Source of the DNA: Nitrosovibrio sp. Nv4
GTDB lineage: Bacteria; Bdellovibrionota; UBA1018; CAIMNF01
Length of the DNA: 64,000 nucleotides
Direction: 5' to 3'
NCBI GenBank assembly: GCA_943327105.2
Contig: CALPVV020000001.1
Coordinates: 3,276-67,275 of the forward strand
The notes under the pieces were generated by a model. The model made no database searches, was not told where the DNA came from, and saw only the letters and a program-made list of their open reading frames with translations. Positions within the stretch are counted from its first letter, which is position 1; every line of letters starts with the position of its first letter. The translations under genes and the position numbers were made by a program. Shown piece after piece: positions 24,594 through 37,965 of the stretch.

Positions 24594-24600
24594 GTATTTT

Positions 24601-24640
24601 TGGGGGTGGGGGTTTTAGCAGGCTCCCACCCCCATCGTTT
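24601..24640. terminator. Bidirectional terminator candidate
   Basis: gggggtggg (24602-24610) pairs with cccaccccc (24625-24633). The hairpin is T-rich on both flanks and lies between convergent genes. Confidence 0.5.
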
Positions 24641-24680
24641 TCCCATCGCATCAGAGAAAGATCATCGATATCATCAGAAT

Positions 24681-25202: not shown

Positions 25203-25259
25203 ACTCTTGATAAGCAAGAGTGATGCCAAACGATCGCCTAGAGTGATTGAATGATTTTA

Positions 25260-25526
25260 TTAATTTGATAATTTGGTTATGAAGTTTCGATAAGACGAAA
25301 ATTGAAGCTGAATGGCATTGATGTCATGTTGTGTTGCCCCAGTTTCTACCAGTTCACCAAATGAACTGATTTCAGGAAAACCATACATTGCACCATTGCC
25401 CTTGAGCTGATGACCAATTTTGAAGAGTAGATCATATTCTTTATTATGAAGGGCTGATTCGATTTGATCCAGTTCTTCTATTCTTCTATTGATGTAGGAT
25501 TGGAGTAGCTTTTCCGGTATTTTCAT
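25260..25526 (-). CDS. Hpt (histidine phosphotransfer) domain protein
   Basis: 88 aa, all-helical, with the canonical HQLKGNGAMYGF phospho-His motif. Confidence 0.75.
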   Translation of the reverse strand: MKIPEKLLQSYINRRIEELDQIESALHNKEYDLLFKIGHQLKGNGAMYGFPEISSFGELVETGATQHDINAIQLQFSSYRNFITKLSN

Positions 25527-25531
25527 TTCAA

Positions 25532-26206
25532 TTATGCCTGAAAGCGATAGCCTTCTCCGGCGCTTGATCGGATCACATGGCAGTATCGATCAAGTTTTTT
25601 ACGAAGATAACAGATGTGTGCATCAACAGTGCGTGTAGTAACGTGAATATCCTTACCCCAGATTTTATCAAGAATCATTTCACGACTAAAAGTCTGTTTA
25701 GGGTTCTTTGCCAAAAGATGGAGAATCTTAAACTCCCTCGGTGTCAAAGTGATGGGCGATTTAAGTCCGCTCAATCGAATGCTTTGGCTATGAAGTTCTA
25801 GAGTGATAGGCCCAGCTTGAAGTTGATCCATTTCGGTCTGTTTAGCCAGTCTTCGCTCAACCCTGGCCCTGAGTTCAAGCAAGTGAAAGGGTTTCGTAAT
25901 GTAATCTTCAGCACCAAACGAGAAGGCATCTACTTTAGAGCTTAAATCACTATTTGCACTCATGATGATCATGGGTGTGTGACGGTTCTTTTCATTTGTA
26001 AGAGCCTGCTCCAACAGATCCATTCCCTTTCCGTCAGGAAGATTCAAATCAACCAATATCAGTGAAAACCCTTCGGAATTGATTTTTCCAATCGCGGCAC
26101 CCATTGAACTACAGGTTTCAACTGCCAAGCCAGAAAGCTCCAAGCTGGCTTTAACCAGGTTGCTGAGTTCGACATCATCTTCAATCATTAGTATTTTCTT
26201 ATTCAT
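25532..26206 (-). CDS. OmpR/PhoB-family DNA-binding response regulator
   Basis: Receiver (ILMIEDD, LILVDLNLPDGKG, MSA, KPF) plus winged-helix (LTPREFKILHLLAKNP..FSRE.ILDKIWG......RTVDAHI..LRKKL). Confidence 0.9.
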   Translation of the reverse strand: MNKKILMIEDDVELSNLVKASLELSGLAVETCSSMGAAIGKINSEGFSLILVDLNLPDGKGMDLLEQALTNEKNRHTPMIIMSANSDLSSKVDAFSFGAEDYITKPFHLLELRARVERRLAKQTEMDQLQAGPITLELHSQSIRLSGLKSPITLTPREFKILHLLAKNPKQTFSREMILDKIWGKDIHVTTRTVDAHICYLRKKLDRYCHVIRSSAGEGYRFQA

Positions 26207-26308
26207 CGACTACGGTCTACTGCAATGAAGGTACCAGTGTAAAATGATTAATTTCGGTGCTTAAAAATAAAAAACACAAGTCATCAATTCTTCAAAAAAT
26301 CTTTAAAT

Positions 26309-27478
26309 TCATTTAAATTCATAGGGTTTTGACTGAATTAAAAAACAGTTGGGAGTGCCCAGTTGTGATCCGCATGTGTGGCATGTTGCCGGAGTGGGTT
26401 TGTTTCTCCCCTCGTATCTGATTTCATCAATAATGCTTTTTTTTCCACAGTTAATGCATCTTTTACTTTGCGACTGGGTGGTAATCTTTCCTTTATCTTC
26501 CGGATGTTCCTGATTCAGCGACCTTACCATTTGAAAAGGTGAAGTAAACCTCATTTCACTCAAGTTAACTCCGTTCAAGAATATGGAAACGGGGCCATCT
26601 TCAGAAATGGTGATTACAATTGCATGGGACACATCATATGAAAATCGAATTGAAGAGGTATGTCTTGTCCCCTTGTAGTTTGGGATTATTTTTTTACTCT
26701 TTGAAGAATAACGAATTTGAACCCCTGAGCTCATCAATACACCTTGTTGATTGATGAAGGTAGCGCCATCCGTCTGCGCTAATAAATGAAAAATTAACTT
26801 TATATGAGATTCGTCCATGAATGAAAGCTGGAGTGGTTCCAGGATTCCATTGGTTTTCTGAGGTGAAAGAAACCAAACTAAGATAGCCCCTACGTGTTCG
26901 GTTGGACTCAATAGATGATACGAAAATTCAAGTAGATTCTGTAAAACCCGTTTGTTTGTTTTTTCAACGCAAAAGCTGATGTTAGATGCCACGTTCTTGA
27001 TGTTTGGTTTGATAAGCCAGTTTCTTCGATCATGCAGAATGATTCTATCACCTTGGTAAATTCTGCATGTTCCGTTATTACTTCGGTTTAATATCAACCC
27101 CCCGGAGAGTGGAAAAAATTTCAGCATTTGAATTTCAGTTGATGATGATTCAGGAATCTTAATCAAACCGTAAAATGAGTTTTGAATAAACAGTGAATAC
27201 CAGTTGAGTCCATCAGCCATTTTTCGTGAAGTCTCGATTTGTTCTGGAAGTAATTTGATTTTTTCAAATTTATCGAAGTCATCAATCGATTCAACAAAAA
27301 TTGCGCCGTAAGAAAAAACAAACCCTTCATGAATCTTAGGTGCAATTGCAAAGTAAATTTCATCTATAATTTCTGGCGTGTTCAACCAGATGTTCGTTTC
27401 AAAGTTAAAGCCATTCAATTTTAATTCTTGAACAAGTATGATTTTCTGGTTTTTTTTTTGCTCATCACTTTCATGCAT
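26309..27478 (-). CDS. Diadenylate-cyclase-like (DisA_N/DAC-fold) protein with uncharacterised N-terminal region and C-terminal zinc ribbon
   Basis: aa ~195-300 carry the ordered DAC motif series: HVGAILV (cf. GALIV), QTDGATFI (cf. HDGAVII), KGTRHTSS (cf. GTRHRAA), ITISEDGPVSIF (cf. VVSEETGxIS). The C-terminus has CINC...CHTC. Confidence 0.6.
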   Translation of the reverse strand: MHESDEQKKNQKIILVQELKLNGFNFETNIWLNTPEIIDEIYFAIAPKIHEGFVFSYGAIFVESIDDFDKFEKIKLLPEQIETSRKMADGLNWYSLFIQNSFYGLIKIPESSSTEIQMLKFFPLSGGLILNRSNNGTCRIYQGDRIILHDRRNWLIKPNIKNVASNISFCVEKTNKRVLQNLLEFSYHLLSPTEHVGAILVWFLSPQKTNGILEPLQLSFMDESHIKLIFHLLAQTDGATFINQQGVLMSSGVQIRYSSKSKKIIPNYKGTRHTSSIRFSYDVSHAIVITISEDGPVSIFLNGVNLSEMRFTSPFQMVRSLNQEHPEDKGKITTQSQSKRCINCGKKSIIDEIRYEGRNKPTPATCHTCGSQLGTPNCFLIQSKPYEFK

Positions 27479-27580
27479 GACGTTTCATGATAGCCATATG
27501 CCGTAAAGAACGCGTTTAAATTAATTTTATACTTTTAGCATATATATTGCTGGTAAGAGTGTGGGATCTTTGTCCTGGGG

Positions 27581-28024
27581 ATGGCTATGGTTTCAAATGG
27601 ACAGCACATGGCGGTGTTGATAGTGGAAGATGATATTGCTGCATCTACACTGATTGATCGCGTGATGAGAAGTATCAGTCAAGATGTAGAGCTTGATTGG
27701 ACCACTTCAGCGGAAGAAGCAATCGAAATCATCGATACAGCGCATCGCTTAAAAATAAAACGACCATATGATTTAATTGTTTCTGATTTTTATCTTGATG
27801 GTTCCAAAAATGGACTGGATTTTTGGAACACCTGTCGGGACTTATTTCCCGATATACCTTTTGTCCTCATGTCGTCTTATGAGCCTGATTTTTTCATGCA
27901 AGATGACAGTGGTGTTTTGGTCCCTTATTTCCTTAAAAAGCCATTTAATTTACGTCAATGCAGGGACTTCTTTTCAGGTTTTTTCAAAAACAGTCAAAAA
28001 CCTGGATTATTAAATCTAAAGTAA
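27581..28024 (+). CDS. Single-domain response regulator (receiver)
   Basis: VLIVEDDIAAS, DLIVSDFYLDGSKNG, VLMSS, LKKPF. Divergent from the DAC-like gene. Confidence 0.75.
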   Translation: MAMVSNGQHMAVLIVEDDIAASTLIDRVMRSISQDVELDWTTSAEEAIEIIDTAHRLKIKRPYDLIVSDFYLDGSKNGLDFWNTCRDLFPDIPFVLMSSYEPDFFMQDDSGVLVPYFLKKPFNLRQCRDFFSGFFKNSQKPGLLNLK

Positions 28025-29091: not shown

Positions 29092-29898
29092 TCAATAGTT
29101 GATCATTGAATCTTTTTGTTTTGCTTCCTGTTCAAGGTCCACCGCGCCTTTTTGCTCTGTATTTTTTATTTCTGGTGCAGAAGCAGGAACTCTTTCCGGT
29201 TGTTCCAATGGGTTTAATCCACTTGCTACTGTCGGTGTCATGCTAATACCGTATTTTGAGAATACCGAATCACTGCTATTAGCTTTTGATTCGAGTGAAA
29301 TCCACGGTTCCATTGATGAACCATTCAGGCCTTGCATTACCGCAATGCTGTTTTCAGAGTTTGGGGTAACTTTTCGGAAAAAAACCCATTCTGAAATTTT
29401 AGAATAATATTGAGTTGCCCAACGTAAATATCTGGAATCGTGATAAAGGTCTAGAAATGCATTTGCAACGGGAGTAATGAACCCAAAGGTTTCAAATACC
29501 TTTTTCTGTCTGTCACCCCAAGTGGTATCAGATTGAAGTGTTTCTTGTAGCTTTGAAATTTTTGAATAAAAGCACCAGTGCATCCTTTCCGGGTCGCCAG
29601 ATACCAATTCAGTTGCACCTTTTTTACGTTCCTCGATGCTATTGGTTAGTGTAGTCAGTTTTTGGAATTCAGAATCACAATTAGTCGCAAATTCGCCTTC
29701 GGCATCCATTGGTGCTAAAGGACTGTGAAAAATCGACCTTAAGCTGGCAAGTTCAAAACTTGCCGGATGGGGTACTTTTACATATTCAGGAACTTCAGGA
29801 AGAGCAGGTCGTTCCTGCACAATTGTAGTGCTGGAGCATCCTGTGATCATCGTCAGAACTAAAACGGTTATTACCCTGCCTTGAATTTCAAGTCTCAT
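29092..29898 (-). CDS. Hypothetical lipoprotein
   Basis: MRLEIQGRVITVLVLTMITGCSS lipobox. No recognisable domain. Divergent from the operon at 30021. Confidence 0.55.
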   Translation of the reverse strand: MRLEIQGRVITVLVLTMITGCSSTTIVQERPALPEVPEYVKVPHPASFELASLRSIFHSPLAPMDAEGEFATNCDSEFQKLTTLTNSIEERKKGATELVSGDPERMHWCFYSKISKLQETLQSDTTWGDRQKKVFETFGFITPVANAFLDLYHDSRYLRWATQYYSKISEWVFFRKVTPNSENSIAVMQGLNGSSMEPWISLESKANSSDSVFSKYGISMTPTVASGLNPLEQPERVPASAPEIKNTEQKGAVDLEQEAKQKDSMINY

Positions 29899-30020
29899 AT
29901 ATTCGATCCTCACCTTCTCACTTATCGTCAACTTCTTGAAAAACGTTAATTTTATGTCGCTATTTTAATATTGTTATTTTTTTTCAAGAACTTAATGGGT
30001 GTGTCCGATCAGCAATTGTG

Positions 30021-31121
30021 ATGAACCGAAGACACTTAAAAACAGGCGCTTTGAAAGTATTTTCATCGGTATTGGCAATCGTTGTGGGATCAATGAATTC
30101 CGCAGCCGCAGCTGAACCACCGGCTCCGAATGGTGCAAGAAACTTCTATGGAGTACTCGATGAAGTTCTTGCTGATTTCGAATATGACCTCAAGTCGGGT
30201 CAAGTGACAGGGTTGAAGGATCTTTCGATCCGAAATATTGCCACCAGCGAGAATGTACCTTCTTCATTCAAACCTCATTTGGAACTTTTGATCACTGAGC
30301 GGATCATGAAAACTACAAAGACTAGAATCGTACATTGTGTCTCATGTAGGGCTAAAAAGACCACCCTCGATTCCCAGTCGATGGTGATTTCGTCACCAGA
30401 CTCAAGCGGTCCTGAAATGCAGAGAATTGCAAAAATGAACGGTATTCAGAATTATATGGATATCGCTTTTGCTTATCAGCCTTCAGGGATGATTCTTTCA
30501 CTTCAAATCAGTGATGCAGAATCAAATAGTACCGTTTGGACTAGAAGTTATAATTCTGAAAATACCAGAGCATCGGCTATGAGACGTGGAGTGGATCCGC
30601 AACAGGCTGAAGAAGCAAAGTTCAAGATGGAATACATGCCGACACTACAGGTGAAACCAACGATATACACACTCATGGCACCAAAAGCTGGTAGTGGTTA
30701 TTCGACTTCCCTTGGGTTGGGTTTGCGGATGATGGAAAGATACGACAATCGCCAAAAAGAAGTTGGATTTGAAATGAACTACTACATGGACATTTCAAAA
30801 CTGATCGGAATAACCCAATCGGATAATAACGTCTGGGCCAAATTCAACCTGACGATGCTATTCATGCATGCTTGGGGACTTTTTGGAGAAGAAGAAAATT
30901 TCAATAAAACTCGTGGTGTGATTCACGCCGGAATTGGAGGCAGTTATGCATCCGGATTCTTGGGTGGTCTGGTTAGAGGTGGTTATGAATGGCGTTTTGC
31001 CAAGCATTGGACCCTGACTTCTTTCCTGGGTTATCGCCCAAAAGCAACGGTATTAATTTCTGGTACACAATCATCTTTGACAGGTGTTGAAGGAGGACTC
31101 GGTGTTGGCTACATATTCTAA
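30021..31121 (+). CDS. Outer-membrane protein: N-terminal alpha/beta periplasmic domain plus C-terminal beta-barrel-like region (hypothetical)
   Basis: Signal peptide ..SMNSAAAA. The C-terminal half has alternating-hydrophobicity strands rich in G/Y and ends in ..GLGVGYIF (terminal Phe, an OMP signature). Confidence 0.6.
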   Translation: MNRRHLKTGALKVFSSVLAIVVGSMNSAAAAEPPAPNGARNFYGVLDEVLADFEYDLKSGQVTGLKDLSIRNIATSENVPSSFKPHLELLITERIMKTTKTRIVHCVSCRAKKTTLDSQSMVISSPDSSGPEMQRIAKMNGIQNYMDIAFAYQPSGMILSLQISDAESNSTVWTRSYNSENTRASAMRRGVDPQQAEEAKFKMEYMPTLQVKPTIYTLMAPKAGSGYSTSLGLGLRMMERYDNRQKEVGFEMNYYMDISKLIGITQSDNNVWAKFNLTMLFMHAWGLFGEEENFNKTRGVIHAGIGGSYASGFLGGLVRGGYEWRFAKHWTLTSFLGYRPKATVLISGTQSSLTGVEGGLGVGYIF

Positions 31122-31125
31122 ATTC

Positions 31126-31821
31126 ATGATGGCGCTTCTGGCTGTAATGACCGTAAGCGGTTGTGCAACCCGTAATCAACAGGAAAAGTTCCGCCCGATC
31201 GACAATCCCTTTGCCGAATCAGGTTGGCAAGCAAGTGATGAAAATAAAAATCTCACTTTCAGAACTAAAAACGGAGATCAAACTGTAGAAGTGGAGATTC
31301 CACATCAGTATGATTCTGATCTTTCGGTGCCAATGAACTTGAATAAGAGCACTGTGAAGGATCAAAAATCAAACGCCGGTGTTGATTACTCATATTCTGA
31401 AATGAAACCTTCCATAGCAGACCGAGAAATCGCATCTACGTTTAATTCTACAGGAACATTTGAAGACGAAAGACGTAAACGCGAAATCGAACAGGGCCTA
31501 GGACTTCAGGAAGTCGATGAGCTGCCTAAGATGGATGAAAGTTATCTTGGAAAGTTAGATGTAGTGAAGCAGCTTTTTAAAAACAAACGTATGGAAGCAT
31601 CTTTGATTGAAATCGACAAAATGATCAAGGATTACCCGACTGATGCAAAGTTATTTGAAATGCGTGGTACGGTACTCGATCGCCTCGGATACCGTGATCT
31701 TGCTCTTCGCTCCTGGAAGCAATCGTTAGAGTTTAAACCAGAACAAATTGCACTTAAAAAAGTAGTGGATAAGCGTGAAGCACAGCGTTCTGTTGCATCA
31801 GAAAAAATGGAGAATAAATAG
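31126..31821 (+). CDS. TPR-repeat lipoprotein
   Basis: MMALLAVMTVSGC lipobox. C-terminal TPR-like units (DAKLFEMRGTVLDRLGYRDLALRSWKQSLEFKPE). The gene starts 4 nt after the upstream stop. Confidence 0.7.
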   Translation: MMALLAVMTVSGCATRNQQEKFRPIDNPFAESGWQASDENKNLTFRTKNGDQTVEVEIPHQYDSDLSVPMNLNKSTVKDQKSNAGVDYSYSEMKPSIADREIASTFNSTGTFEDERRKREIEQGLGLQEVDELPKMDESYLGKLDVVKQLFKNKRMEASLIEIDKMIKDYPTDAKLFEMRGTVLDRLGYRDLALRSWKQSLEFKPEQIALKKVVDKREAQRSVASEKMENK

Positions 31822-34134
31822 ATGAAATCGAATTTGATGACAATCCTCACATTCATCGCCATGATTCATACCGCTCATGCGGCTCCATCGACACTCGATG
31901 TGAAAAAACACGGCGAACAAGAAATCAAACAAGTGATTGAACCGATCGTAGAAAAATACTGCCATGAGCAGTGCCGCGTGGTTCACATTGAAACTGAAGT
32001 TGATCTCGCGGTTGATGATCTGACCACACCTGGCTTTGAAGATGGCGGCGGTAAGGTTACTTTGGCACCGGCAAGCGGCAAGGTTAAATTATTGATTGAT
32101 GAAAATCTTGGTAGCAAAAACCGTGGAATGATTATTGATTTGATGAAAGAACACTTTCTTTCATTGAATTTTCCTGTAGAGCTTGATGTTAAGGTTTCCA
32201 GGTTTCCACAGCCGGCATCATCTAACTATAAGACGGCTGAATTACGGGATAAGGTATCTCGCGACATTAAAAACTCCATCAACTCGCTTCTTACTCAATT
32301 CTGTTCAAAGCACTGTGTATTGGGTGAATTCGATGTTCAAACTGAGGCAGTCAACCCTGAAGATATTGACTATGCTTCCAATCAAGAATACTTCCAGGAC
32401 GGGCCTGCCGCTGTACGTGTGAAAAGTGTTAAGGCCAATATTATGGTTGATGAGATGATGCCATCGGCAGAAGCCGCAGGAATTATTGAAATGGCCAAAG
32501 TAAAAGTTGCTCAGTTCAAGAATGCAGACATTACTAGTCAAACCATGAAGTTTCCTAAAAGTGCAGAAGAGTTGAATGCTGCAATCGCATCAGCTGAAAC
32601 CAATGGCAAGAATGGCCGTATGCCTTCTTCAACGACTACTAATGACAACAAGGAAATGCGTGACAGTAAAGAAGTACACGACAGCAAGGAAGTCAAAGAT
32701 TCCAGAGAAATGAAAGACTCTAAAGAGTCTAAAACCGAAAATATTACCAAAAATGAAACCGGTAATAGAAGTGAACGATTTGAAAAATACGAAAAAATTG
32801 AACGGGTTGAAAATGGTGATGCGGTTCAGAAAACACTGGATAAGTTCCGTCTCTACGGAATCATCATCTCGGCAATCATTCTTGCTCTACTCTGTACTCT
32901 GGTTGTAACTTCGTTCCGGAAGCAGATCTTCACTACACTTGGGTTTCCAGGTGGTGGTGGCGATGGAAAAAGCAACGAAAGCAAGATTACACATTCATAT
33001 TCTTATGGTGGACTGAGTGATCCTTCCCTGACTAGTGATGAGAAGGGCGCTTTGATTGCACGTCGAATCGAAGCAAGCAACCTTTATAATGAGATGATCA
33101 ACATTTTCGGTGAGCAACCGAAAGTGGCGAAACATGTCTTTACCAATATTCTCACCGAAGAGGGAGTTGAAGAGGTTGCTAAATACCTTGAAATGTTTGG
33201 TGAGTCGGTGATGATGGATCTTTTGAAGGATCCTGGTCTTCAAACCGATTGTGCCGAGTTGATGGAATTTTACAGCAAAAACACATTCGAACTTTCTGAA
33301 GATGAAAAATTCAATCTTTTGAAGCGTCTTCACCATAGAACAACCACTGCCAAGATGCAGATCTTTGGAAGTAGATCGGCGACATTGTTCGATTTCCTTG
33401 CCGAAATGGAATCAAATCAGATTTCAGATATGGTCAAGAACGAGTCAAATACGGTCAAGGCGATCATTCTTACTCAATGTGATCAGAAAAAGCGCCAAGC
33501 TGTATTCAATTCTTATGATGAGGGCTTGAGATTAAAGTTGATGACAGAGTTGTCGCGAATCGATCATTTGCCTAAGAACTATATCTTTAACGTAGCATCG
33601 GCGCTACGTCGTAAAAAGGCAGAAAATCCGAAGTACAATACTGAAGCATTGCCAGGTTCAGATGTATTGGTTTCTTTCCTTGAGAAATCAGGTCTTGAAA
33701 CACAAAAGGCGATTGTTCAGCAATTGATGAGTTCTTCCAGCGGTGATGCGATTCATGCACTCAAGTCGAAATTGGCAAGTCTTGAATCGATACGCTACAT
33801 GAAGGACAGTCAGGTGACTGAGATTGCAACAAGCTTGAAGCACGACGAGTTCGTTCAATTTGTCAAAGGTACAACCGCTGACATCCGTGATGCGATCTTG
33901 AATAAAGTTTCACATGACTTGGCGATCGAGTTGTCTGAAGAAATTGATCTGGTTGAGGCTGTTGGTAGAGATACCTTCCTTTCGATTGAGCGTAAGATTC
34001 TGAATAAAATCAAAATTCTTGCAAACCAGGGTCAGATCAATCTCGCAGAAGTGAATGAAAAGATGTTTGCCAATGAGTTCGGTTTCGACACCACAAGTGA
34101 AATCGATGCATCAGACATGAAGAGAGTAGGATAA
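31822..34134 (+). CDS. Membrane-anchored FliG homologue: signal peptide + about 320-aa periplasmic domain + 1 TM + FliG N/M/C-like cytoplasmic domains
   Basis: The C-terminal ~400 aa are collinear with FliG. LTSDEKGALIA (cf. LTGxEKAAILL), FDFL..M...Q..DMVKNES.TVKAIILTQ.D...R..V....DE.LR..LM.E.SR, and VKGTTADIRDAILNKVSHDLAIELSEEIDL..AVGR....IERKIL.....LANQGQI (cf. E. coli LKGA...LREKFLRNMSQRAADILRDDLANRGPVR...VENEQKAIL...RRLAETGEM). TM helix at 32851-32916. Confidence 0.7.
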   Translation: MKSNLMTILTFIAMIHTAHAAPSTLDVKKHGEQEIKQVIEPIVEKYCHEQCRVVHIETEVDLAVDDLTTPGFEDGGGKVTLAPASGKVKLLIDENLGSKNRGMIIDLMKEHFLSLNFPVELDVKVSRFPQPASSNYKTAELRDKVSRDIKNSINSLLTQFCSKHCVLGEFDVQTEAVNPEDIDYASNQEYFQDGPAAVRVKSVKANIMVDEMMPSAEAAGIIEMAKVKVAQFKNADITSQTMKFPKSAEELNAAIASAETNGKNGRMPSSTTTNDNKEMRDSKEVHDSKEVKDSREMKDSKESKTENITKNETGNRSERFEKYEKIERVENGDAVQKTLDKFRLYGIIISAIILALLCTLVVTSFRKQIFTTLGFPGGGGDGKSNESKITHSYSYGGLSDPSLTSDEKGALIARRIEASNLYNEMINIFGEQPKVAKHVFTNILTEEGVEEVAKYLEMFGESVMMDLLKDPGLQTDCAELMEFYSKNTFELSEDEKFNLLKRLHHRTTTAKMQIFGSRSATLFDFLAEMESNQISDMVKNESNTVKAIILTQCDQKKRQAVFNSYDEGLRLKLMTELSRIDHLPKNYIFNVASALRRKKAENPKYNTEALPGSDVLVSFLEKSGLETQKAIVQQLMSSSSGDAIHALKSKLASLESIRYMKDSQVTEIATSLKHDEFVQFVKGTTADIRDAILNKVSHDLAIELSEEIDLVEAVGRDTFLSIERKILNKIKILANQGQINLAEVNEKMFANEFGFDTTSEIDASDMKRVG
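32650..32735 (+). repeat. About four imperfect 21-nt tandem repeats encoding KE(M/V)xDS(K/R)
   Basis: Translation is KEMRDSKEVHDSKEVKDSREMKDSKESK. It lies in the periplasmic juxtamembrane linker of the FliG-like protein. Confidence 0.7.
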
Positions 34135-34138
34135 CCGT

Positions 34139-34924
34139 ATGAATATTTCATCTTTAGTCGGAGTATTGGTTGGTCTTGCGGTAGTAGCCGCATCTCTCAC
34201 TGAAACAGGAATGGATCTGAAGTTCTTCCTGAACTTCCACGGAGTGGTGATTGTCTGTGGTGGAACATTCGCTGCAGCTGCAATCAGCTATCCATTGAAC
34301 AAGATCTTTATGTTGACGAAGGTGTTCTTCAATCGGTTGCTGGGTAAATCTAAAATCGATTACCAGGCAACAATTGAACAGATGCTCGATATCAATAAGA
34401 AGTTTTCACTAGGTCTTGTGAGCGGCAACGATGCTGCCAACCTAGCAACACACCCTTTCTTGAAAGAGGCTGTGATCTTGGTTGCAGACGGAGTGCTTTC
34501 AGAAAAAGAAATTCGTGCCGTGCTGGAGCAGCGATTAAAAACAATCGAATATCAGTATCATCATGAGGCGCAAATGTTCAAAGCACTCGGAAAGTATCCG
34601 CCGGCTTTTGGACTTCTTGCAACTACGCTTGGTATGATCGCATTACTTCAAAAAATCGGACAGCCGGGCGCGGAGAAACTAATTGGACCGGCGATGGCAA
34701 TCGGTCTTGTTGGAACCCTTTATGGAATTGGCTTGGCAAACTTGTTCTTCATTCCAGTATCGGATGCACTTGTTGATAAAACGGAAGATGAAATGGCGCT
34801 TCGAAGAATGATGGTAGAAGGTGCGGTTTTGCTCAAACAAAGAGTGAACCCATTATTCATGCGCGAAAACCTGAATTCCTTCCTGATGCCAAAAGACCGT
34901 ATTCGCAGAAAGTCGGCAGCTTAA
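34139..34924 (+). CDS. MotA/PomA-like stator channel subunit (4 TM with long TM2-TM3 cytoplasmic loop)
   Basis: 261 aa. Two N-terminal TM helices, an ~100-aa loop, then YPPAFGLLATTLGMIALL and IGLVGTLYGIGLANLFFIPVSD (MotA_ExbB channel signature including the conserved Pro positions). Confidence 0.85.
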   Translation: MNISSLVGVLVGLAVVAASLTETGMDLKFFLNFHGVVIVCGGTFAAAAISYPLNKIFMLTKVFFNRLLGKSKIDYQATIEQMLDINKKFSLGLVSGNDAANLATHPFLKEAVILVADGVLSEKEIRAVLEQRLKTIEYQYHHEAQMFKALGKYPPAFGLLATTLGMIALLQKIGQPGAEKLIGPAMAIGLVGTLYGIGLANLFFIPVSDALVDKTEDEMALRRMMVEGAVLLKQRVNPLFMRENLNSFLMPKDRIRRKSAA

Positions 34925-34925
34925 T

Positions 34926-35720
34926 ATGGCAGTCATTCGAAAGCTTGAAAAGCCACAAGAAGAAAATACGCTCTATATCATCGACAAGAAAAGGTCGAAG
35001 GAAGAGCATAGTGATTCAAACTGGATTATCAGTTACGCGGACATGATGACCCTGCTCTGTATTTTTTTCATCATGCTTTTCAGCATGTCGAAGATGAATA
35101 CACCCGAATTTGAATCGGTAAAGAAAGAAGTATCCGAACACTTTGGTGCAAAGTATGAGTCACCTACGGAAGATCTGGGTAAATTCATCAATATGGTTTT
35201 AGTTGAAGCCGGAGTTGAAAAACAGGTGACGATGACCAGCGATGGTACCAGTGTGAGTGTGGCTTTCCATTCAACGATGTTTTTCGATACTTTGAGTGCA
35301 GAGATTTCACCAGCTGGTAAAGAGATCGTTGAAAAAATAGCGACCAAGCTGAATGAGTATCAAACAAAGAAGAACAAAAAATATAAAATCGTGATCGAGG
35401 GTCATACTGATAGTCAAGCTGTTGTCGGTGGTCCTTTCCCGAGTAACTGGGAACTTTCCAGTGCCCGTGCTACACGAGTAGTGCGCCTGTTTATTGATAA
35501 GAGCTTTGACCCTAAAGTGATGTTACCGATTGGTTTTGCTGATACACAGCCTCTCGGGGCTGATCGCAATTCAGATGGAACTTGGAATGGTGAAAACTTG
35601 GCGAAAAACCGTCGCGTGATACTGAAGATTCTTTTGCCAGAGGCTGAGAATGTCACATTTGGTAAAAAAGAAACGCAAACTCCAGCGCCTGCCTCAGTTC
35701 CAGAACCAGTAAAGCAATAG
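34926..35720 (+). CDS. MotB-like stator subunit with OmpA-type peptidoglycan-binding domain
   Basis: NWIISYADMMTLLCIFFIMLF (single TM with the conserved ion-binding Asp). C-terminal IEGHTDS...SNWELSSARATRV...NRRV OmpA-like motif. It starts 1 nt after the motA-like stop. Confidence 0.85.
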   Translation: MAVIRKLEKPQEENTLYIIDKKRSKEEHSDSNWIISYADMMTLLCIFFIMLFSMSKMNTPEFESVKKEVSEHFGAKYESPTEDLGKFINMVLVEAGVEKQVTMTSDGTSVSVAFHSTMFFDTLSAEISPAGKEIVEKIATKLNEYQTKKNKKYKIVIEGHTDSQAVVGGPFPSNWELSSARATRVVRLFIDKSFDPKVMLPIGFADTQPLGADRNSDGTWNGENLAKNRRVILKILLPEAENVTFGKKETQTPAPASVPEPVKQ

Positions 35721-35748
35721 GAAAATCTTACCGGCTGATTTCGGCCTA

Positions 35749-35979
35749 ATGACATGGGAACATGAAATGATGAAATTGAAGAACAGATTCAAAAAACCTG
35801 CTTCGAGAATAAAGGCACAAGATATCTGGGCTGAGAAAGCACCTTTATTTATTTCTCTTTTCCTTTTTGCGTTCGGAATGGGAATGATCGCCGATGGTAA
35901 AAAGATGTATGCAAATCAACTTCGGTTGTCTGAACGCGTTGATTACCGTGCTACTTTCAATCCTTTCCCGAAGAATTAA
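35749..35979 (+). CDS. Small hypothetical membrane protein
   Basis: 76 aa with one hydrophobic helix (APLFISLFLFAFGMGMIA). Possibly the last gene of the upstream operon. Confidence 0.4.
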   Translation: MTWEHEMMKLKNRFKKPASRIKAQDIWAEKAPLFISLFLFAFGMGMIADGKKMYANQLRLSERVDYRATFNPFPKN

Positions 35980-36101: not shown

Positions 36102-36176
36102 TGGCTCAGGAGGAGGGATTCGAACCCCCGACCAATCGGTTAACAGCCGATTGCTCTACCACTGAGCTACTCCTGA
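36102..36176 (-). tRNA. tRNA-Asn (anticodon GTT)
   Basis: The reverse complement reads TCAGGAG-TA-GCTC-AGTGGTA-GAGC...CGGCTGTTAACCG (loop CTGTTAA)...GGGGGTTCGAATCCCTC-CTCCTGA-G-CCA. Full cloverleaf with 7-bp acceptor stem and encoded CCA. Confidence 0.95.
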
Positions 36177-36261: not shown

Positions 36262-37965
36262 ATGAAAAGGATTTCTAACTTTATTCCCACTTTTTTTGTG
36301 GTTTTTGCAGTGTTTCATTTTTCGGATTTAAATGCTCAACCGTTTGATAAGCGTGCGTCAAAGTCGGTTTCCAAATCAAAATCATTGAAAATGCCCCCTT
36401 TACGCCAGCCCGCTGAGTATCGGCTTCTTGAGAAGATCAAAAAAGAGACCAATTTATCGAAGTTAACGGTCCAGCAGATTCAGTCTCACCAACGAGAGCT
36501 GAAAAATCTGGAATGGACCTCGACCAATAAGACTTTTGAAAAAGAAATCGAAGATCTTTTTTGGTATTTGGAAATTGTTCGGGCTGAAAAGCAGGGTGGA
36601 ACCGCTGCACTGAATGCGTGGATGAAGGCTTTGAGTTCACTCAATCAATTCAAATGGATTTATGGTTGGACCGAAACGACTTCTAAGTCTTTGGTCTCCA
36701 TTTGCAAGAAATCAAAGCCTGCAAAAACCTTCGCCCAAAAACAAATAGAGGAAAAATGCGCTTATCTTTCAAAAAAAGTGAATGATGCGTTTCCGAAAGG
36801 CGCGCTTGAAACCCAGTCGCTGAAAGAGCTGATAGCTGAACAAAATGGTGCAATCGATGCTGTGACCGATCGCTTTGATCGTTTGGGCCAATCCTATACT
36901 GAAAAAACTGAAAAAGACGAAGATGAGTTTGTAGAGGTGCTTGATCACTACTTGAACCATCGTGATAGTGACCTTTATCGGGCTGGAAAAACGTTTATCG
37001 AAACGTATCCAAAGTCGATGCTTCGCTTTCGAACTTTGTTTTTGATTGCAGAAAGACAATTTGCAAACGGAGATAAAAAAGAGGCTGAAAAAAACTATCT
37101 ACAAATCATCAATCAGGTTCCTTACGGATATTACTCGATCGTTTCGAGTGAGCGTCTTGGGCTTTCTTTGCCTGAAAAACTTGAAAAAGCGCCTTTAGCG
37201 CCACTCGAGGATCTTTCCGATGCAAAACTGACCTTGATGGAAAAAGATGCATTGTGCCGGGTTGAGAATCTGGTACAGCTGAAAAAGCAGGAACCCGTTT
37301 CCATCGAGCTTGAACAATTTTCCCGCATCAGATCTTATCCGACCACATTCTTGATTCACTTGCTTAAGCAGGCGAATCAGTCAGGGCAAGATCTGGCAGG
37401 GTTTCGTTTTGCCACCGAGATTTTACAGCGAAAAGGCGAAGCCCCATTGAATGCAGGGTTTGTTGATTTGATATTCCCCGATCGTTTTCAAAAAGAAATT
37501 GCACAGCAGGCGAGCCTTTCAAAGATCGACCCCCTTTTGGTGATTTCTCTGATGAAGCAAGAGTCGGGTTTTAAGCGGTCGATTCTTTCAAGCTCTGGGG
37601 CCGTCGGCCTGATGCAGTTGATGCCATTTACAGCGCTTGAGGTGCAGAAGGATCTTTATCTTCGTAATTTGCGTGAGCCTGCTAAAAACATCGAAGTCGG
37701 TACGAAGTATCTTGCATCGCTATTGAATGAAAAATTCAATGGCAATGTCGTTTATGCGCTAGCCGGTTACAATGCCGGTCCGCATCGAGTGGGTAAGTGG
37801 AAAAAAGAAGTCAAGACCGACTGGGGAATGCAGGAGTTCATCGAGTCGATTCCTTACAAAGAAACGCGGGATTATGTGATGTCGATTCTCAGAAATCGCT
37901 ACTGGTACCAGTATCGCAAGGGAATGAAGCCACAAAGCGTATTTGAAGCATGGCGTTCGCCTTGA
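36262..37965 (+). CDS. Soluble lytic murein transglycosylase (Slt70-like: superhelical N-domain + SLT catalytic domain)
   Basis: Signal peptide. C-terminal LMKQESGF....S.SGAVGLMQLMPFTA ... AGYNAGPHRV catalytic signature. Confidence 0.85.
   Translation: MKRISNFIPTFFVVFAVFHFSDLNAQPFDKRASKSVSKSKSLKMPPLRQPAEYRLLEKIKKETNLSKLTVQQIQSHQRELKNLEWTSTNKTFEKEIEDLFWYLEIVRAEKQGGTAALNAWMKALSSLNQFKWIYGWTETTSKSLVSICKKSKPAKTFAQKQIEEKCAYLSKKVNDAFPKGALETQSLKELIAEQNGAIDAVTDRFDRLGQSYTEKTEKDEDEFVEVLDHYLNHRDSDLYRAGKTFIETYPKSMLRFRTLFLIAERQFANGDKKEAEKNYLQIINQVPYGYYSIVSSERLGLSLPEKLEKAPLAPLEDLSDAKLTLMEKDALCRVENLVQLKKQEPVSIELEQFSRIRSYPTTFLIHLLKQANQSGQDLAGFRFATEILQRKGEAPLNAGFVDLIFPDRFQKEIAQQASLSKIDPLLVISLMKQESGFKRSILSSSGAVGLMQLMPFTALEVQKDLYLRNLREPAKNIEVGTKYLASLLNEKFNGNVVYALAGYNAGPHRVGKWKKEVKTDWGMQEFIESIPYKETRDYVMSILRNRYWYQYRKGMKPQSVFEAWRSP

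What the first reader, a model, noticed from the sequence alone, without database searches (positions are those of the whole stretch)
30021..35979. Envelope-spanning five-gene operon couples a MotA/MotB stator pair to a membrane-anchored FliG homologue, with no other flagellar genes nearby
Five genes are packed with gaps of 0-4 nt. They encode an OM protein with a beta-barrel C-terminus ending in Phe, a TPR lipoprotein, a 770-aa bitopic protein whose cytoplasmic half is collinear with FliG, a 4-TM MotA/PomA-type channel subunit, and a MotB-type subunit with the conserved TM Asp and an OmpA-like PG anchor. FliG is the rotor component that MotA pushes on in flagella. Here the rotor-like and stator-like parts are encoded together with an OM component and a periplasmic TPR component. 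There is no FliM/N, export apparatus, rod, hook or filament gene within at least 25 kb either side. This would fit an ion-motive-force-driven trans-envelope machine distinct from the flagellum, Tol-Pal, ExbBD-TonB, Agl-Glt and GldLM. I do not recognise it as a described system. A divergent lipoprotein gene (29092-29898) and a small TM protein (35749-35979) may belong to it.
Basis: partly seen in the sequence, partly recalled or inferred. Interest (0 to 1): 0.85.

Follow-up and report, generated by a model that had tools for sequence, protein, structure and literature searches.

The report
Flagellar-type motor without a flagellum
A gene cluster conserved across the predatory phylum Bdellovibrionota encodes a membrane-anchored protein resembling a fusion of the flagellar rotor proteins FliF and FliG, its own MotA/MotB ion-driven stator, and outer-membrane partners, but no other flagellar parts, which points to an undescribed envelope-spanning, probably rotary, machine.

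Summary
Five tightly packed genes (30021-35720), plus a divergent lipoprotein gene, encode:
- an outer-membrane protein with a TolB-N-like domain and an 8-stranded barrel;
- a lipoprotein with a short, weakly detected TPR-like C-terminus;
- a 770-aa protein;
- flagellar-type MotA and MotB.

The 770-aa protein is more than an anchored FliG. Its predicted fold is a signal peptide, two FliF/SctJ-like ring-building motifs, one TM helix, and a full FliG N/M/C module.

The gene set is syntenic in about 80 Bdellovibrionota species. Much more distant versions, with rearranged gene order, occur in high-GC genomes.

A FliA (sigma-28, attack-phase) promoter motif lies upstream of the first gene in 50 of 53 loci. 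Most relatives also carry a cNMP-binding protein gene between the rotor-like and stator genes.

No other flagellar gene lies within 25 kb. The FliM-binding HPQ residues are replaced, and the canonical MotA R90/E98 and FliG R281 charges are altered.

I found no description of this system in the literature. The closest natural precedent is the chlamydial FliF-FliG fusion, for which that paper lists no stator genes.

My best reading (confidence about 0.5) is a private rotor-stator pair forming a non-flagellar envelope-spanning motor. A flagellar accessory role is not excluded.

The parts
29092..29898 (-). Divergently transcribed lipoprotein (268 aa; lipobox ITGC; conserved Cys pair and HWCFY motif). 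No family assignment.
   Evidence: ORF. A homologue is present at the same divergent position in most of the 60 loci where it was found (59 in the clustering); contig ends account for some absences. Alignment A6. No Pfam, NCBIfam or PADLOC hit.
29984..30011 (+). FliA (sigma-28)-type promoter motif, TCAAG-N16-TCCGATCA. It ends 6-9 nt before the start codon of the first gene.
   Evidence: The motif T[N]AA-N14-17-CCGA[AT] is on the + strand upstream of the OM-protein gene in 50 of 53 loci. Expected counts are 1.4 +/- 0.9 (shuffles) and 2.8 +/- 1.1 (random segments). The strict form occurs only once in the 64-kb window, on either strand. It matches the B. bacteriovorus attack-phase/FliA consensus TTAAG-N16-CCGATA (PMC3627812).
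30021..31121 (+). Outer-membrane protein: signal peptide, periplasmic alpha/beta domain (about aa 40-200, invariant CxxC) with a TolB-N/LpoB-like fold, and a C-terminal 8-stranded beta-barrel (about aa 209-364) ending GYIF.
   Evidence: AF2 model, pLDDT 81.9. Foldseek: TolB 1.4e-6, OmpW 6e-6, NspA 1e-4 (TMt 0.66), OmpX, OmpA-TM, LpoB C-domain 4e-4. Alignments A3 and A5, 55-57% mean column identity. No sequence-level family or PDB hit.
31126..31821 (+). Lipoprotein (lipobox VSGC, Ala at +2) with an invariant PIxNPF motif, a beta segment and a short C-terminal TPR-like helical region.
   Evidence: Alignment A4. Weak NlpI/PilW/MamA hits, 1e-3 to 1e-2. Present in 76 of 81 loci.
31822..34134 (+). 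770-aa bitopic rotor-like protein: signal peptide, two RBM-like domains, a disordered linker, a conserved juxtamembrane helix plus TM, and FliG N/M/C.
31891..32547 (+). Two tandem alpha-beta-beta-alpha-beta domains (aa 24-126 and 132-242), each with a CxxxC motif. FliF/SctJ-type ring-building-motif fold, periplasmic.
   Evidence: AF2 secondary structure with high block-mean pLDDT over most of this region. Foldseek to FliF MS-ring chains 7bk0_B 7e-5 and 6scn_A 4e-4, weaker to YscD and EscJ. No sequence-level hit to FliF or SctJ.
32773..32922 (+). One of the most conserved segments: the periplasmic juxtamembrane motif ERFEKYEKIERVENGDAVQ, continuous with the single TM helix (aa about 345-367).
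   Evidence: Invariant columns E324-A334 in 62 sequences. Predicted as one helix, aa 333-369.
33034..34077 (+). Cytoplasmic module: a long helix (aa 405-431, possibly the counterpart of the FliF C-terminal tail) followed by FliG N, M and C domains (aa 433-752).
   Evidence: Pfam FliG_M and FliG_C. TIGR00207 1.1e-15 over profile positions 106-330. PDB FliG 3hjl 6e-13. Foldseek to full-length FliG 8umx_B 9e-8 over 317 columns. Motif analysis.
34139..34924 (+). MotA/PomA/MotP-type stator A subunit (261 aa).
   Evidence: Pfam MotA_ExbB 7.5e-18. NCBIfam MotP 1.6e-41, MotA 7e-38, PomA 5e-35, all below equivalog cut-offs. PDB C. sporogenes MotA 1.6e-31 full length. Loop conservation in 118 orthologues.
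34926..35720 (+). MotB-type stator B subunit (264 aa): TM with Asp39, plug, and an OmpA-like peptidoglycan-binding domain.
   Evidence: Pfam MotB_plug 8.1e-17 and OmpA 1.7e-14. NCBIfam MotD and MotS. PDB MotB and MotS.
35749..35979 (+). 76-aa single-TM protein. Found only in the window's close clade, so membership is uncertain.
   Evidence: A homologue follows MotB in 10 loci of the close clade only. No family hit.

Best explanation
The cluster encodes a self-contained motor of flagellar ancestry that spans the envelope and is driven by ion-motive force.

Proposed mechanism:
1. The 770-aa protein is exported by a signal peptide.
2. Its two periplasmic FliF/SctJ-like ring-building motifs oligomerise, probably into a ring in or on the inner membrane. 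This presents a ring of FliG N/M/C modules on the cytoplasmic face.
3. The co-encoded MotA5B2-type stator is anchored to peptidoglycan through MotB. It conducts ions through the Asp39 channel, and its MotA cytoplasmic loops push on the acidic torque helix of the FliG module. The fusion-protein assembly therefore moves, most likely rotates, relative to the wall.
4. The motion or force is passed through the RBM domains and the highly conserved juxtamembrane helix to the outer-membrane partners: the TolB-N-like domain of the 8-stranded barrel protein and the two lipoproteins.
5. The operon is transcribed from a FliA/sigma-28 promoter, which in Bdellovibrio drives the motile attack-phase programme.
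6. In most lineages, though not in this window's clade, a small cNMP-binding protein encoded between the rotor and stator genes probably gates the motor.

Shown: domain homologies, predicted folds and topology, synteny, the promoter motif, and the lack of flagellar neighbours.

Inferred: ring formation, the MotA-FliG contact, rotation, coupling to the OM proteins, and regulation.

The cellular output is unknown. Candidates are surface movement, prey contact, or outer-membrane/sheath dynamics.
For: (1) Rotor-like protein.
- FliG_M and FliG_C score above the Pfam thresholds.
- The profile matches PDB FliG at 6e-13.
- Foldseek aligns full-length FliG over 317 columns, and FliF MS-ring chains at 7e-5 and 4e-4.
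- AF2 shows two alpha-beta-beta-alpha-beta domains, one TM helix and an all-helical FliG region.

(2) Stator.
- MotA aligns full length to flagellar MotA and PomA structures, 1.6e-31.
- MotB has the plug, the Asp and the OmpA domain.

(3) Dedicated pairing.
- MotAB is adjacent to the FliG-like gene in every locus long enough to show it. In clustering, MotA is in 69 and MotB in 67 of 79 loci.
- The pairing persists in distant relatives with a different gene order, MotA-MotB-FliG-like, at 17-24% identity.

(4) Altered interface on both partners.
- MotA lacks a basic residue at the R90 position and has N/K/H/Q at the E98 position. It keeps K87/K88 and D/E98.
- The FliG position equivalent to R281 is D/E699. 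The D288/D289 equivalents remain acidic (E706/E707). R716 sits one residue from the R297 position.

(5) The HPQ residues of the FliM-binding EHPQR motif are replaced (E-S-x-T-V) while E541 and R579 stay invariant. No fliM or fliN is nearby.

(6) OM components.
- The barrel plus TolB-N-like domain.
- Two lipoproteins with lipoboxes.
- Conserved Cys pairs are present in the 770-aa protein's periplasmic domains, the OM protein's N-terminal domain and the divergent lipoprotein, but not in the TPR-like lipoprotein.

(7) The FliA-type promoter motif is found in 50 of 53 loci.

(8) A cNMP-binding protein gene lies between the rotor and stator genes in 61 of 79 loci.

(9) Engineered FliF-FliG fusions assemble rings (abstracts of PMC10941966 and PMC6079021, listed).
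Against: - No oligomer or complex could be modelled, so ring formation and the MotA-FliG contact are inferences.
- RBM homology rests on a predicted fold only. There was no Pfam YscJ_FliF hit and no FliF or SctJ sequence hit.
- The protein has no RBM3 or beta-collar.
- The sigma-28 promoter, the flagellar-type stator and the fact that known carriers are flagellated (the FG magnetotactic Bdellovibrionota) are equally compatible with a flagellum-associated role.
- The residue equivalences at the interface depend on alignments that could be off by one or two positions.
- The output function is unknown.
- Co-transcription was not tested. The generic promoter and terminator scans were uninformative.
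Confidence: 0.5

Rival explanations
1. Accessory module of the sheathed polar flagellum. The MotAB pair would be an extra stator set for the ordinary flagellar rotor. The FliF/FliG-like protein, OM barrel and lipoproteins would form a scaffold, reservoir, brake or second ring around the basal body, comparable to the extra rings of Vibrio and Campylobacter motors.
For: - FliA-type promoter in 50 of 53 loci.
- The stator is of the flagellar MotA/PomA/MotP type, not TolQ or ExbB.
- Carriers that have been imaged have a thick polar flagellum (PMC13200544).
- BALO genomes carry 1-4 motAB pairs as separate small clusters (PMC11323537).
Against: - In B. bacteriovorus FliA controls about two thirds of attack-phase promoters, including many non-flagellar genes. 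The promoter is therefore not specific to flagella.
- A TM-anchored FliG fused to its own RBM domains cannot occupy the C-ring position under FliF.
- The HPQ residues of the FliM-binding motif are replaced.
- MotA lacks the canonical R90 and E98, which argues against it driving an ordinary FliG.
- No hit to FlgO/P/T, MotX/Y or PflA/B families.
- Flagellated B. bacteriovorus HD100 appears to lack the system. The neighbours of motAB1 are unrelated, only one genuine fliG (Bd3403) is evident among its flagellar gene clusters, where a second entry labelled fliG (Bd3319) sits at the flhG position and looks like a mislabel, and no complete-genome contig appears among the listed homologues.
- Distant versions occur in a 7.5-Mb, 67% GC genome with a myxobacteria-type OM barrel. 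Its taxonomy is unproven.
Confidence: 0.25
2. Non-rotary force transducer in the manner of Tol-Pal or ExbBD-TonB. The FliG-like protein does not form a ring. Single copies or small oligomers are tugged by the rotating MotA pentamer, and the conformational change is relayed through the periplasmic domain to the TolB-N-like OM protein and lipoproteins, for outer-membrane tethering, remodelling or uptake.
For: - The OM protein's periplasmic domain has a TolB-N/LpoB-like fold.
- OM lipoproteins with a TPR-like region and an OmpA-type PG anchor recall Tol-Pal logic.
- The distant operons include a protein with a weak TonB_C match, E about 0.007.
- There is no RBM3 or beta-collar.
Against: - In Tol and Ton systems the transducer contacts the motor through its TM helix, not through a cytoplasmic FliG-MotA interface.
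- All three FliG domains are retained, as are two RBM-fold domains, whose known role is ring building.
- The MotA here is clearly of the flagellar clade.
Confidence: 0.15
3. Inner-membrane ring of an unrecognised secretion or assembly apparatus. It would be SctJ-like, in the way chlamydial FliF-FliG is proposed to associate with the injectisome, with MotAB supplying energy.
For: - SctJ-like topology: signal peptide, two RBMs and a C-terminal TM.
- Natural precedent of a FliF-FliG fusion in non-flagellated Chlamydiaceae (PMC4768692).
Against: - No export-gate, ATPase, secretin or substrate-like genes in any of the 79 loci.
- The chlamydial protein has only a FliG_M-like region, and that paper lists only FliF, FliL and FlhA as flagellar genes, so no stator.
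Confidence: 0.05
4. Decaying remnant of a duplicated flagellar gene set with no function of its own.
For: Scores are below the equivalog cut-offs for FliG, MotA and MotB.
Against: - Intact ORFs and conserved order in 79 loci spanning 32-83% identity. MotA is kept at 51-91% identity, and there are dozens of invariant residues in every component.
- A conserved promoter.
Confidence: 0.02

Closest known systems
Bacterial flagellar rotor-stator core (FliF MS-ring, FliG, MotA5B2/PomA5B2)
   Same: - FliG N/M/C fold.
- RBM-fold periplasmic domains on the other side of the membrane.
- A stator of the flagellar MotA/PomA/MotP type with plug, channel Asp and OmpA-like PG anchor.
- An acidic pair on the torque helix.
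- A sigma-28 promoter.
   Different: - Rotor parts are fused in one 770-aa polypeptide with a cleavable signal peptide and one TM helix.
- No RBM3 or beta-collar.
- The HPQ residues of EHPQR are replaced.
- MotA R90 and E98 and FliG R281 are not conserved at their canonical positions.
- No FliM/N, export apparatus, rod, hook or filament genes in the operon or within 25 kb.
- Partners are an OM barrel protein, two lipoproteins and, in most lineages, a cNMP-binding protein.
Chlamydiaceae FliF-FliG fusion protein (Bergeron 2016, PMC4768692)
   Same: A natural single polypeptide with RBM-type periplasmic domains, a TM helix and a C-terminal FliG-like region, in a genome context without a flagellum.
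   Different: - The chlamydial protein is about 330 aa with two TM helices and only a FliG_M-like region, so it has no torque-generating FliG_C.
- The paper lists only FliF, FliL and FlhA as chlamydial flagellar genes, so no MotAB.
- It is thought to associate with the injectisome.
- The protein here has full FliG N/M/C and a dedicated stator.
Engineered FliF-FliG fusions of Salmonella and Vibrio (e.g. PDB 8z4d; PMC10941966, PMC6079021)
   Same: They show that covalent FliF-FliG fusions still assemble rings (paper abstracts). The PDB entry for one such fusion matched the profile at 5e-7.
   Different: They are artificial, contain complete FliF with RBM3, and work inside a complete flagellum.
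Other 5:2 ion-driven motor systems coupled to the outer membrane (TolQRA-TolB-Pal, ExbBD-TonB, AglRQS-Glt, GldLM-T9SS, ZorAB)
   Same: The general logic is the same: an inner-membrane ion-driven A5B2 motor energises a process at or beyond the outer membrane through periplasm-spanning partners. TPR proteins, small OM barrels and a TolB-N-like fold recur.
   Different: - The A/B subunits here belong to the flagellar clade, not TolQ/ExbB/AglR/GldL/ZorA.
- The driven partner is a FliG module engaged on the cytoplasmic side, which none of those systems has.
YcgR-type second-messenger brakes of the flagellar motor
   Same: A small nucleotide-binding protein is encoded between the rotor-like and stator genes in 61 of 79 loci. 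This suggests second-messenger control at the rotor-stator interface.
   Different: - The domain is cNMP_binding (CAP-type), not PilZ.
- It is absent from this window's clade.
- Binding and effect are untested.

Membership tests
FliG (flagellar motor switch protein) | FliG_M and FliG_C domains detectable above curated Pfam thresholds | tested here: met
   FliG_C 40.3 bits (cut-off 23.3). FliG_M 28.2 bits (cut-off 25). PDB FliG 6e-13. Foldseek to full-length FliG 9e-8.
FliG (flagellar motor switch protein) | Equivalog-level similarity (TIGR00207 cut-off 226.7 bits) and a soluble architecture of about 330 aa | tested here: not met
   57.8 bits. The protein is 770 aa with a signal peptide, periplasmic domains and a TM helix.
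FliG (flagellar motor switch protein) | EHPQR motif of FliG_M that binds FliM | tested here: not met
   E541 and R579 are invariant, but HPQ is replaced by S-x-T (E-S-x-T-V-K) in 62 sequences.
FliG (flagellar motor switch protein) | Charged torque-helix residues (E. coli R281, D288, D289, R297) | tested here: inconclusive
   The acidic pair is kept (E706/E707). The R281 position is D/E699. The R297 position is S/G715, with R716 next to it. Additional conserved residues are K695 and E703. The equivalences depend on the alignment.
FliG (flagellar motor switch protein) | Encoded with fliF, fliH, fliM, fliN and other flagellar genes | tested here: not met
   No such genes in window 1-61310 or in the flanks of the related loci.
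FliF / SctJ (YscJ_FliF, ring-building motif proteins) | Sequence match to PF01514 or to FliF/SctJ chains | tested here: not met
   No Pfam hit at E <= 1. No FliF or SctJ among the PDB sequence hits with the full-length or RBM-only profile. The RBM-only profile run against 1.84 billion representatives gave 147 hits; the ten examined all proved to be FliG-like fusion proteins, not FliF.
FliF / SctJ (YscJ_FliF, ring-building motif proteins) | Alpha-beta-beta-alpha-beta RBM fold in the periplasm next to a TM helix | tested here: met
   Two such domains in the AF2 model. Foldseek: FliF 7bk0_B 7e-5, 6scn_A 4e-4, YscD 0.05, EscJ 0.11. This rests on a predicted structure only.
FliF / SctJ (YscJ_FliF, ring-building motif proteins) | RBM3 with beta-collar (FliF-specific) and assembly into a ring | tested here: not met
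   After RBM2 the model shows only a disordered, low-complexity linker, aa 262-331. Ring assembly itself is not testable with these tools.
Flagellar stator MotA/PomA | Full-length similarity to flagellar A subunits rather than to TolQ or ExbB | tested here: met
   All seven NCBIfam hits are flagellar (MotP, MotA, PomA), best 1.6e-41, but all fall below the equivalog cut-offs. PDB MotA and PomA, 1.6e-31 to 7e-25, over residues 1-254.
Flagellar stator MotA/PomA | Conserved cytoplasmic-loop charges R90 and E98 that contact FliG | tested here: not met
   The R90 position is A/L/F and the E98 position is N/K/H/Q in 118 orthologues. K87/K88 and D/E98 nearby are conserved.
Flagellar stator MotB/PomB | TM Asp, plug helix and OmpA-like PG-binding domain | tested here: met
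   D39 in YADMMTLL. MotB_plug 8.1e-17. OmpA 1.7e-14. Equivalog cut-offs are not reached.
Tol-Pal / ExbBD-TonB | TolQ/ExbB-type A subunit with TolA/TonB, TolB and Pal partners | tested here: not met
   No TolQ, ExbB, TolA, TonB, TolB or Pal family hit for any window protein. Only the fold of the OM protein's N-domain resembles the TolB N-domain.
Zorya anti-phage system | ZorA with a long tail, ZorB, and ZorC/D or ZorE/F/G | tested here: not met
   PADLOC: only generic ZorB-type matches to MotB. No ZorA or other Zor protein.
FliA (sigma-28) regulon of Bdellovibrionota | Promoter TTAAG-N16-CCGATA upstream of the transcription start | tested here: met
   Window 29984-30011. 50 of 53 loci against about 1-3 expected. 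Consensus from PMC3627812. Use of the promoter in vivo was not tested.

The most novel reading that the evidence does not exclude
A free-standing, flagellum-independent rotary nanomachine. A ring of RBM-FliG fusion protein is turned by private MotAB stators and is mechanically coupled through the periplasm to an outer-membrane barrel/lipoprotein complex. It is switched on with the attack-phase programme and gated by a cyclic nucleotide.

It would be the first FliG/MotAB torque generator known outside a flagellum. It would be either a stripped-down descendant of the flagellar motor or a surviving relative of its pre-secretion rotor-stator core. Its likely use would be a surface or envelope task such as gliding, prey contact, or outer-membrane/sheath dynamics.
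Probability: 0.4. Interest if true: 0.92.

Novelty: new variant of a known kind. Interest (0 to 1): 0.8.

Why it matters
In every characterised case I know of, the FliG-MotA interface works only as part of a complete flagellum. A conserved module that keeps only the torque-generating pair would change that picture. Here the pair is fused to FliF-like ring domains and wired to outer-membrane proteins.

- It would show that the rotor-stator core can be deployed on its own.
- It would add a new member to the small set of 5:2 ion-driven envelope machines: flagellum, Tol, Ton, Agl-Glt, GldLM and Zorya.
- It would give a minimal system of about six genes for studying torque generation and ring assembly.
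- It bears on the origin of the flagellar motor, namely whether rotation or export came first, and makes that question experimentally approachable.
- It concerns Bdellovibrionota biology. A 2026 review states that the gliding machinery of Bdellovibrio remains unidentified (PMC13104615). I did not test any link between this operon and gliding or prey entry.

Tried and rejected
- **Literature.** Nine full-text searches found no description of this operon. The nearest item is the chlamydial FliF-FliG fusion.
- **B. bacteriovorus HD100.**
  - The Morehouse 2011 paper is not held.
  - The gene table in a Karunker 2013 supplementary file shows motA1 (Bd0144) preceded by a phosphatase and followed by 370-aa and 311-aa hypothetical proteins, so motAB1 is not in this operon.
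  - That table is cut off before the motAB2 and motAB3 region.
  - No complete-genome contig appears among the 120 best FliG-like or MotA homologues.
  - Absence from HD100 is therefore likely but not proven.
- **Sequence-level searches.** Searches with the OM protein, both lipoproteins and the small protein gave nothing useful.
- **RBM-only profile.** I expected it to reach FliF. It found instead a shorter, one-RBM FliG-fusion subfamily.
- **Promoter and terminator scans.** A sigma-54 promoter search found none. Generic sigma-70 and terminator scans did not differ from shuffled expectation.
- **Taxonomy of the distant loci L085 and L087-L089.** It could not be established. Cluster look-ups returned no organism names. 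The only hints are 61-67% GC, a 7.5-Mb contig and a TIGR04565 OMP_myx_plus hit.
- **Zorya membership** was rejected.
- **cNMP-binding gene.** I considered that the window might have relocated it. tblastn found none in the 64 kb.

Full report

Yes. The six-frame ORF list gives the following genes:
- an outer-membrane (OM) protein, 30018/30021-31121, 366-367 aa;
- a lipoprotein, 31126-31821. The longest ORF starts at 31084, but the lipobox VSGC follows the internal Met;
- a 770-aa protein, 31822-34134;
- MotA, 34139-34924;
- MotB, 34926-35720;
- a 76-aa TM protein, 35749-35979;
- a divergent lipoprotein, 29092-29898 on the minus strand.

The gaps between the five core genes are 4, 0, 4 and 1 nt.

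Pfam places FliG_M (2.2e-6) and FliG_C (4.3e-10), both above the gathering thresholds, at residues 532-741 of the 770-aa protein. It also finds MotA_ExbB (7.5e-18) in the fourth protein, and MotB_plug (8.1e-17) plus OmpA (1.7e-14) in the fifth.

NCBIfam gives TIGR00207 fliG at 1.1e-15. For the stator it gives only flagellar models (MotP, MotA, PomA, MotD, MotS). All of these fall well below the equivalog cut-offs.

Gene calls with precomputed Pfam annotation are available on contigs that carry identical proteins: a 69-kb JGI/ENA contig and a 325-kb ENA scaffold. They cover window positions 1-61310 and contain no other flagellar gene.
- Upstream lie leuS, dcd, a sigma-54 activator, several response regulators, an Hpt protein, a diadenylate cyclase and a Dps-like protein.
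- Downstream lie tRNA-Asn, an Slt-type transglycosylase, prs, pth and ychF.

**2. What the 770-aa protein is**

I built an AlphaFold2 model from a 62-sequence alignment (mean pLDDT 75.6). It shows, in order:
- a signal peptide;
- two tandem alpha-beta-beta-alpha-beta domains (aa 24-126 and 132-242), each with a conserved CxxxC motif;
- a disordered Ser/Lys/Glu-rich linker (aa 262-331);
- a single long helix (aa 333-369) made of one of the most conserved motifs in the family, EKIERVENGDAVQ, running into the only TM segment;
- a disordered cytoplasmic linker;
- a 27-residue helix (aa 405-431);
- an all-helical region (aa 433-752).

Foldseek against the PDB returns two groups of hits:
- full-length FliG chains from C-ring cryo-EM structures (8umx_B 9e-8, 317 aligned columns);
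- separately, FliF MS-ring chains (7bk0_B 7e-5; 6scn_A 4e-4), with weaker YscD and EscJ hits.

A sequence profile matches Aquifex FliG from residue 67 to the C-terminus at 6e-13.

The protein is therefore a natural analogue of a FliF-FliG fusion. It has an SctJ-like topology (signal peptide, two ring-building motifs, a C-terminal TM helix) joined to a complete FliG N/M/C module. The helix at 405-431 sits where the FliF C-terminal tail would bind FliG_N. That last point is inference.

The RBM assignment rests on the predicted fold only. No sequence search reached FliF or SctJ.

**3. Motifs**

In 62 family members:
- The FliM-binding EHPQR motif keeps E541 and R579, but HPQ is replaced by S-x-T.
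- The Gly-Gly linker region is PG, inside an invariant NTEALPG motif.
- The MFXF hinge is L-V-S-[LIV].
- On the torque helix, the E. coli D288/D289 positions stay acidic (E706/E707). The R281 position is D/E699. The R297 position is S/G, with R716 adjacent. K695 and E703 are also conserved.

In 118 MotA orthologues:
- The R90 position is A/L/F.
- The E98 position is N/K/H/Q.
- K87/K88 and D/E98 are conserved.

One of the two canonical rotor-stator charge pairs (MotA E98 with FliG R281) is thus altered on both partners. I read this as a private, co-adapted interface. This is inference and it depends on the alignment.

MotB keeps the channel Asp (D39), the plug and the OmpA-like domain.

**4. 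The outer-membrane partners**

The first protein models well (pLDDT 81.9). Its C-terminal half is an 8-stranded OM barrel. Foldseek matches OmpW 6e-6, NspA 1e-4 with TM-score 0.66, OmpX, OmpA-TM, Ail and PagL. The barrel ends in GYIF. Its N-terminal alpha/beta domain resembles the TolB N-domain and the LpoB C-domain.

It has no sequence-level family yet is very conserved, with 55-57% mean column identity and an invariant CxxC.

The second protein is a lipoprotein with an invariant PIxNPF motif and a short TPR-like C-terminus.

The divergent gene encodes a third conserved envelope protein, a lipoprotein with two invariant Cys residues.

Both lipoproteins lack Asp at position +2. By the E. coli sorting rule this suggests OM targeting, which is inference.

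**5. Conservation and distribution**

The FliG-like protein has at least 124 homologues at 38-100% identity, all about 740-840 aa. Wherever a source gives an organism name, it is Bdellovibrionota or a broader label.

A scan of one genome per GTDB species found 88 species, and 79 distinct loci were fetched. Most are labelled Bdellovibrionales, Bacteriovoracaceae or Oligoflexia. A few carry broader or other labels such as Proteobacteria, Lysobacteraceae and Alphaproteobacteria. They include the magnetotactic 'Bdellonasia' genomes FG-1 and FG-2, whose cells have a single thick polar flagellum.

Of the 81 loci compared (these 79 plus two fetched earlier, L001 and L002), the order lipoprotein(-) | OM protein - lipoprotein - FliG-like - MotA - MotB recurs in essentially every locus long enough to show it.

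| Gene | Loci with the gene (of 81) |
|---|---|
| FliG-like | 81 |
| TPR-like lipoprotein | 76 |
| MotA | 73 |
| OM protein | 72 |
| MotB | 69 |
| Divergent lipoprotein | 60 |

Unbiased clustering of all ORFs in the loci added two components:
- a 170-aa cNMP_binding protein (Pfam 3.6e-18) between the FliG-like gene and motA, in 61 of 79 loci;
- a protein of about 320 aa with a weak zinc-ribbon match, a central hydrophobic segment and a bacterial SH3 domain just under the Pfam threshold, downstream of motB, in 48 loci.

The window's clade has lost the cNMP gene, and none is found elsewhere in the 64 kb. Instead it carries the 76-aa TM protein.

I ran a profile of the two RBM domains alone against 1.84 billion representative proteins. 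It found only 147 proteins, 93 of them at E <= 1e-10. Those examined, apart from evident fragments, are FliG-like fusions, so the domain appears to be specific to this family.

The weaker hits form a shorter subfamily of 567-611 aa with one RBM, a Pro-rich linker, a TM helix and a FliG-like region.

Their loci again place the gene next to MotA and MotB, but in the order MotA-MotB-FliG-like. The operons have roughly ten to eleven genes and include small OM barrels, TPR proteins and a protein with a weak TonB_C match. These loci have 61-67% GC. One lies on a 7.5-Mb contig whose barrel protein matches TIGR04565 (OMP_myx_plus). The taxonomy is not established.

A 986-aa variant sits in a five-gene arrangement, 387 aa - 272 aa - MotA - MotB - FliG-like.

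The MotAB/FliG-like/OM-protein association therefore survives gene-order changes and divergence down to 17-24% identity.

**6. Regulation**

A motif T[C/T/A]AAG-N15-17-CCGA[A/T] lies on the coding strand just upstream of the OM-protein gene in 50 of 53 loci. The expectation is 1.4 +/- 0.9 in shuffles and 2.8 +/- 1.1 in random segments.

In the window it is TCAAGAACTTAATGGGTGTGTCCGATCA, at 29984-30011. This is the only strict match in the 64 kb on either strand.

It equals the experimentally derived B. bacteriovorus attack-phase promoter consensus, TTAAG-N16-CCGATA, which is attributed to FliA/sigma-28. That consensus controls flagellar genes and many non-flagellar attack-phase genes (PMC3627812).

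The motif ends 6-9 nt before the start codon. This suggests a very short leader or none, which is inference.

No sigma-54 motif was found. The distant high-GC operons lack the FliA motif.

**7. Is it the ordinary flagellar rotor and stator, or part of it?**

The architecture is not that of FliG or FliF, and it fails several defining tests (see the membership table).

B. bacteriovorus HD100 has canonical fliF and fliG (Bd3404 and Bd3403) inside a large flagellar cluster, plus three motAB pairs (PMC11323537 supplement). The neighbours of its motAB1 are unrelated to this operon. No complete-genome contig appears among the listed homologues. The best-studied flagellated, sheathed, gliding predator therefore probably lacks the system.

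I could not examine the rest of the window's genome. I cannot exclude an accessory role at the flagellar motor.

**8. Mechanism proposed**

*Shown:* the parts list, predicted topology, homologies, synteny and the promoter motif.

*Inferred:*
- The RBM domains oligomerise into an inner-membrane ring that carries a cytoplasmic FliG ring.
- PG-anchored MotA5B2 units, gated by the plug and powered through D39, push on the acidic torque helix.
- The movement, most likely rotation, is transmitted by the periplasmic domains and the invariant juxtamembrane helix to the TolB-N-like domain of the OM barrel protein and to the lipoproteins.
- Expression is FliA-dependent.
- The cNMP-binding protein, where present, acts as a clutch or brake.

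The output is unknown. My confidence is about 0.5 for a dedicated non-flagellar rotor-stator machine, and lower for rotation as such.

**9. Comparison with known systems, and novelty**

The closest systems are:
- the flagellar FliF/FliG/MotAB core;
- the chlamydial FliF-FliG fusion (PMC4768692). It has only a FliG_M-like region, and that paper lists no stator genes;
- engineered FliF-FliG fusions, which form rings (abstracts listed);
- more loosely, the other 5:2 motor systems: Tol, Ton, Agl-Glt, GldLM and Zorya.

The system is not a member of the Tol, Ton or Zorya groups. I found no paper describing it.

I classify it as a new variant of a known kind: a FliG/MotAB torque pair in a new, flagellum-less architecture. 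There is a substantial chance that it is a categorically new stand-alone machine.

Noticed in passing
window 23172-28024: A signalling gene cluster lies between leuS/dcd and the operon. It has a sigma-54-dependent response regulator (473 aa), three further receiver proteins, an Hpt protein and a 389-aa diadenylate cyclase (DAC plus DACNK domains). More distant relatives such as L001 lack it; there leuS abuts the divergent lipoprotein gene.
   Followed up: partly
L026:10293-10805 (and 60 other loci): A 170-aa single-domain cNMP_binding protein is encoded between the FliG-like gene and motA in 61 of 79 loci. It is absent from the window and its closest clade, where the gap is 4 nt. It is a candidate second-messenger clutch or brake.
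   Followed up: yes
L026:12449-13393 (48 loci): A protein of about 320 aa follows motB in most of the more distant loci. It has a weak N-terminal zinc-ribbon match, a central hydrophobic segment and a C-terminal bacterial SH3 domain scoring just under the Pfam threshold. In the window's clade an unrelated 76-aa TM protein occupies that place.
   Followed up: partly
L085:1120-13365, L087:1126-13205, L088:1627-13423: A distant, high-GC (61-67%) version of the system has roughly ten to eleven genes: small OM barrels (one matching TIGR04565 OMP_myx_plus), TPR proteins, MotA, MotB, a one-RBM FliG-like protein of 567-611 aa, a protein of 317-388 aa, and a protein of about 180 aa with a weak TonB_C match. 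One locus lies on a 7.5-Mb contig. The taxonomy is unknown, possibly Myxococcota-like.
   Followed up: partly
window 29984-30021: The -10 element of the FliA-type promoter motif ends only 6-9 nt before the GTG/ATG start of the OM-protein gene. The mRNA may be leaderless or nearly so in this clade. Other clades leave about 30 nt or more.
   Followed up: no
window 36102-36176 (-): tRNA-Asn (GTT) lies on the opposite strand between the 76-aa gene and the Slt-type lytic transglycosylase gene (36262-37965). It marks the 3' boundary of the operon in this clade.
   Followed up: no
B. bacteriovorus HD100, Bd0144-Bd0147 (Karunker 2013 supplementary gene table): HD100 motA1 and motB1 are PomA/MotP-sized (262 and 249 aa). 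They are followed, with no gap, by two hypothetical proteins of 370 and 311 aa (Bd0146, Bd0147). I could not check whether these relate to the system described here.
   Followed up: no
L014:2288-3794: A second, very divergent MotA/MotB-like pair (22-26% identity to the window proteins) lies about 4 kb upstream of the operon in one relative. It is probably a TolQR, ExbBD or AglRS-type pair. I did not examine it.
   Followed up: no
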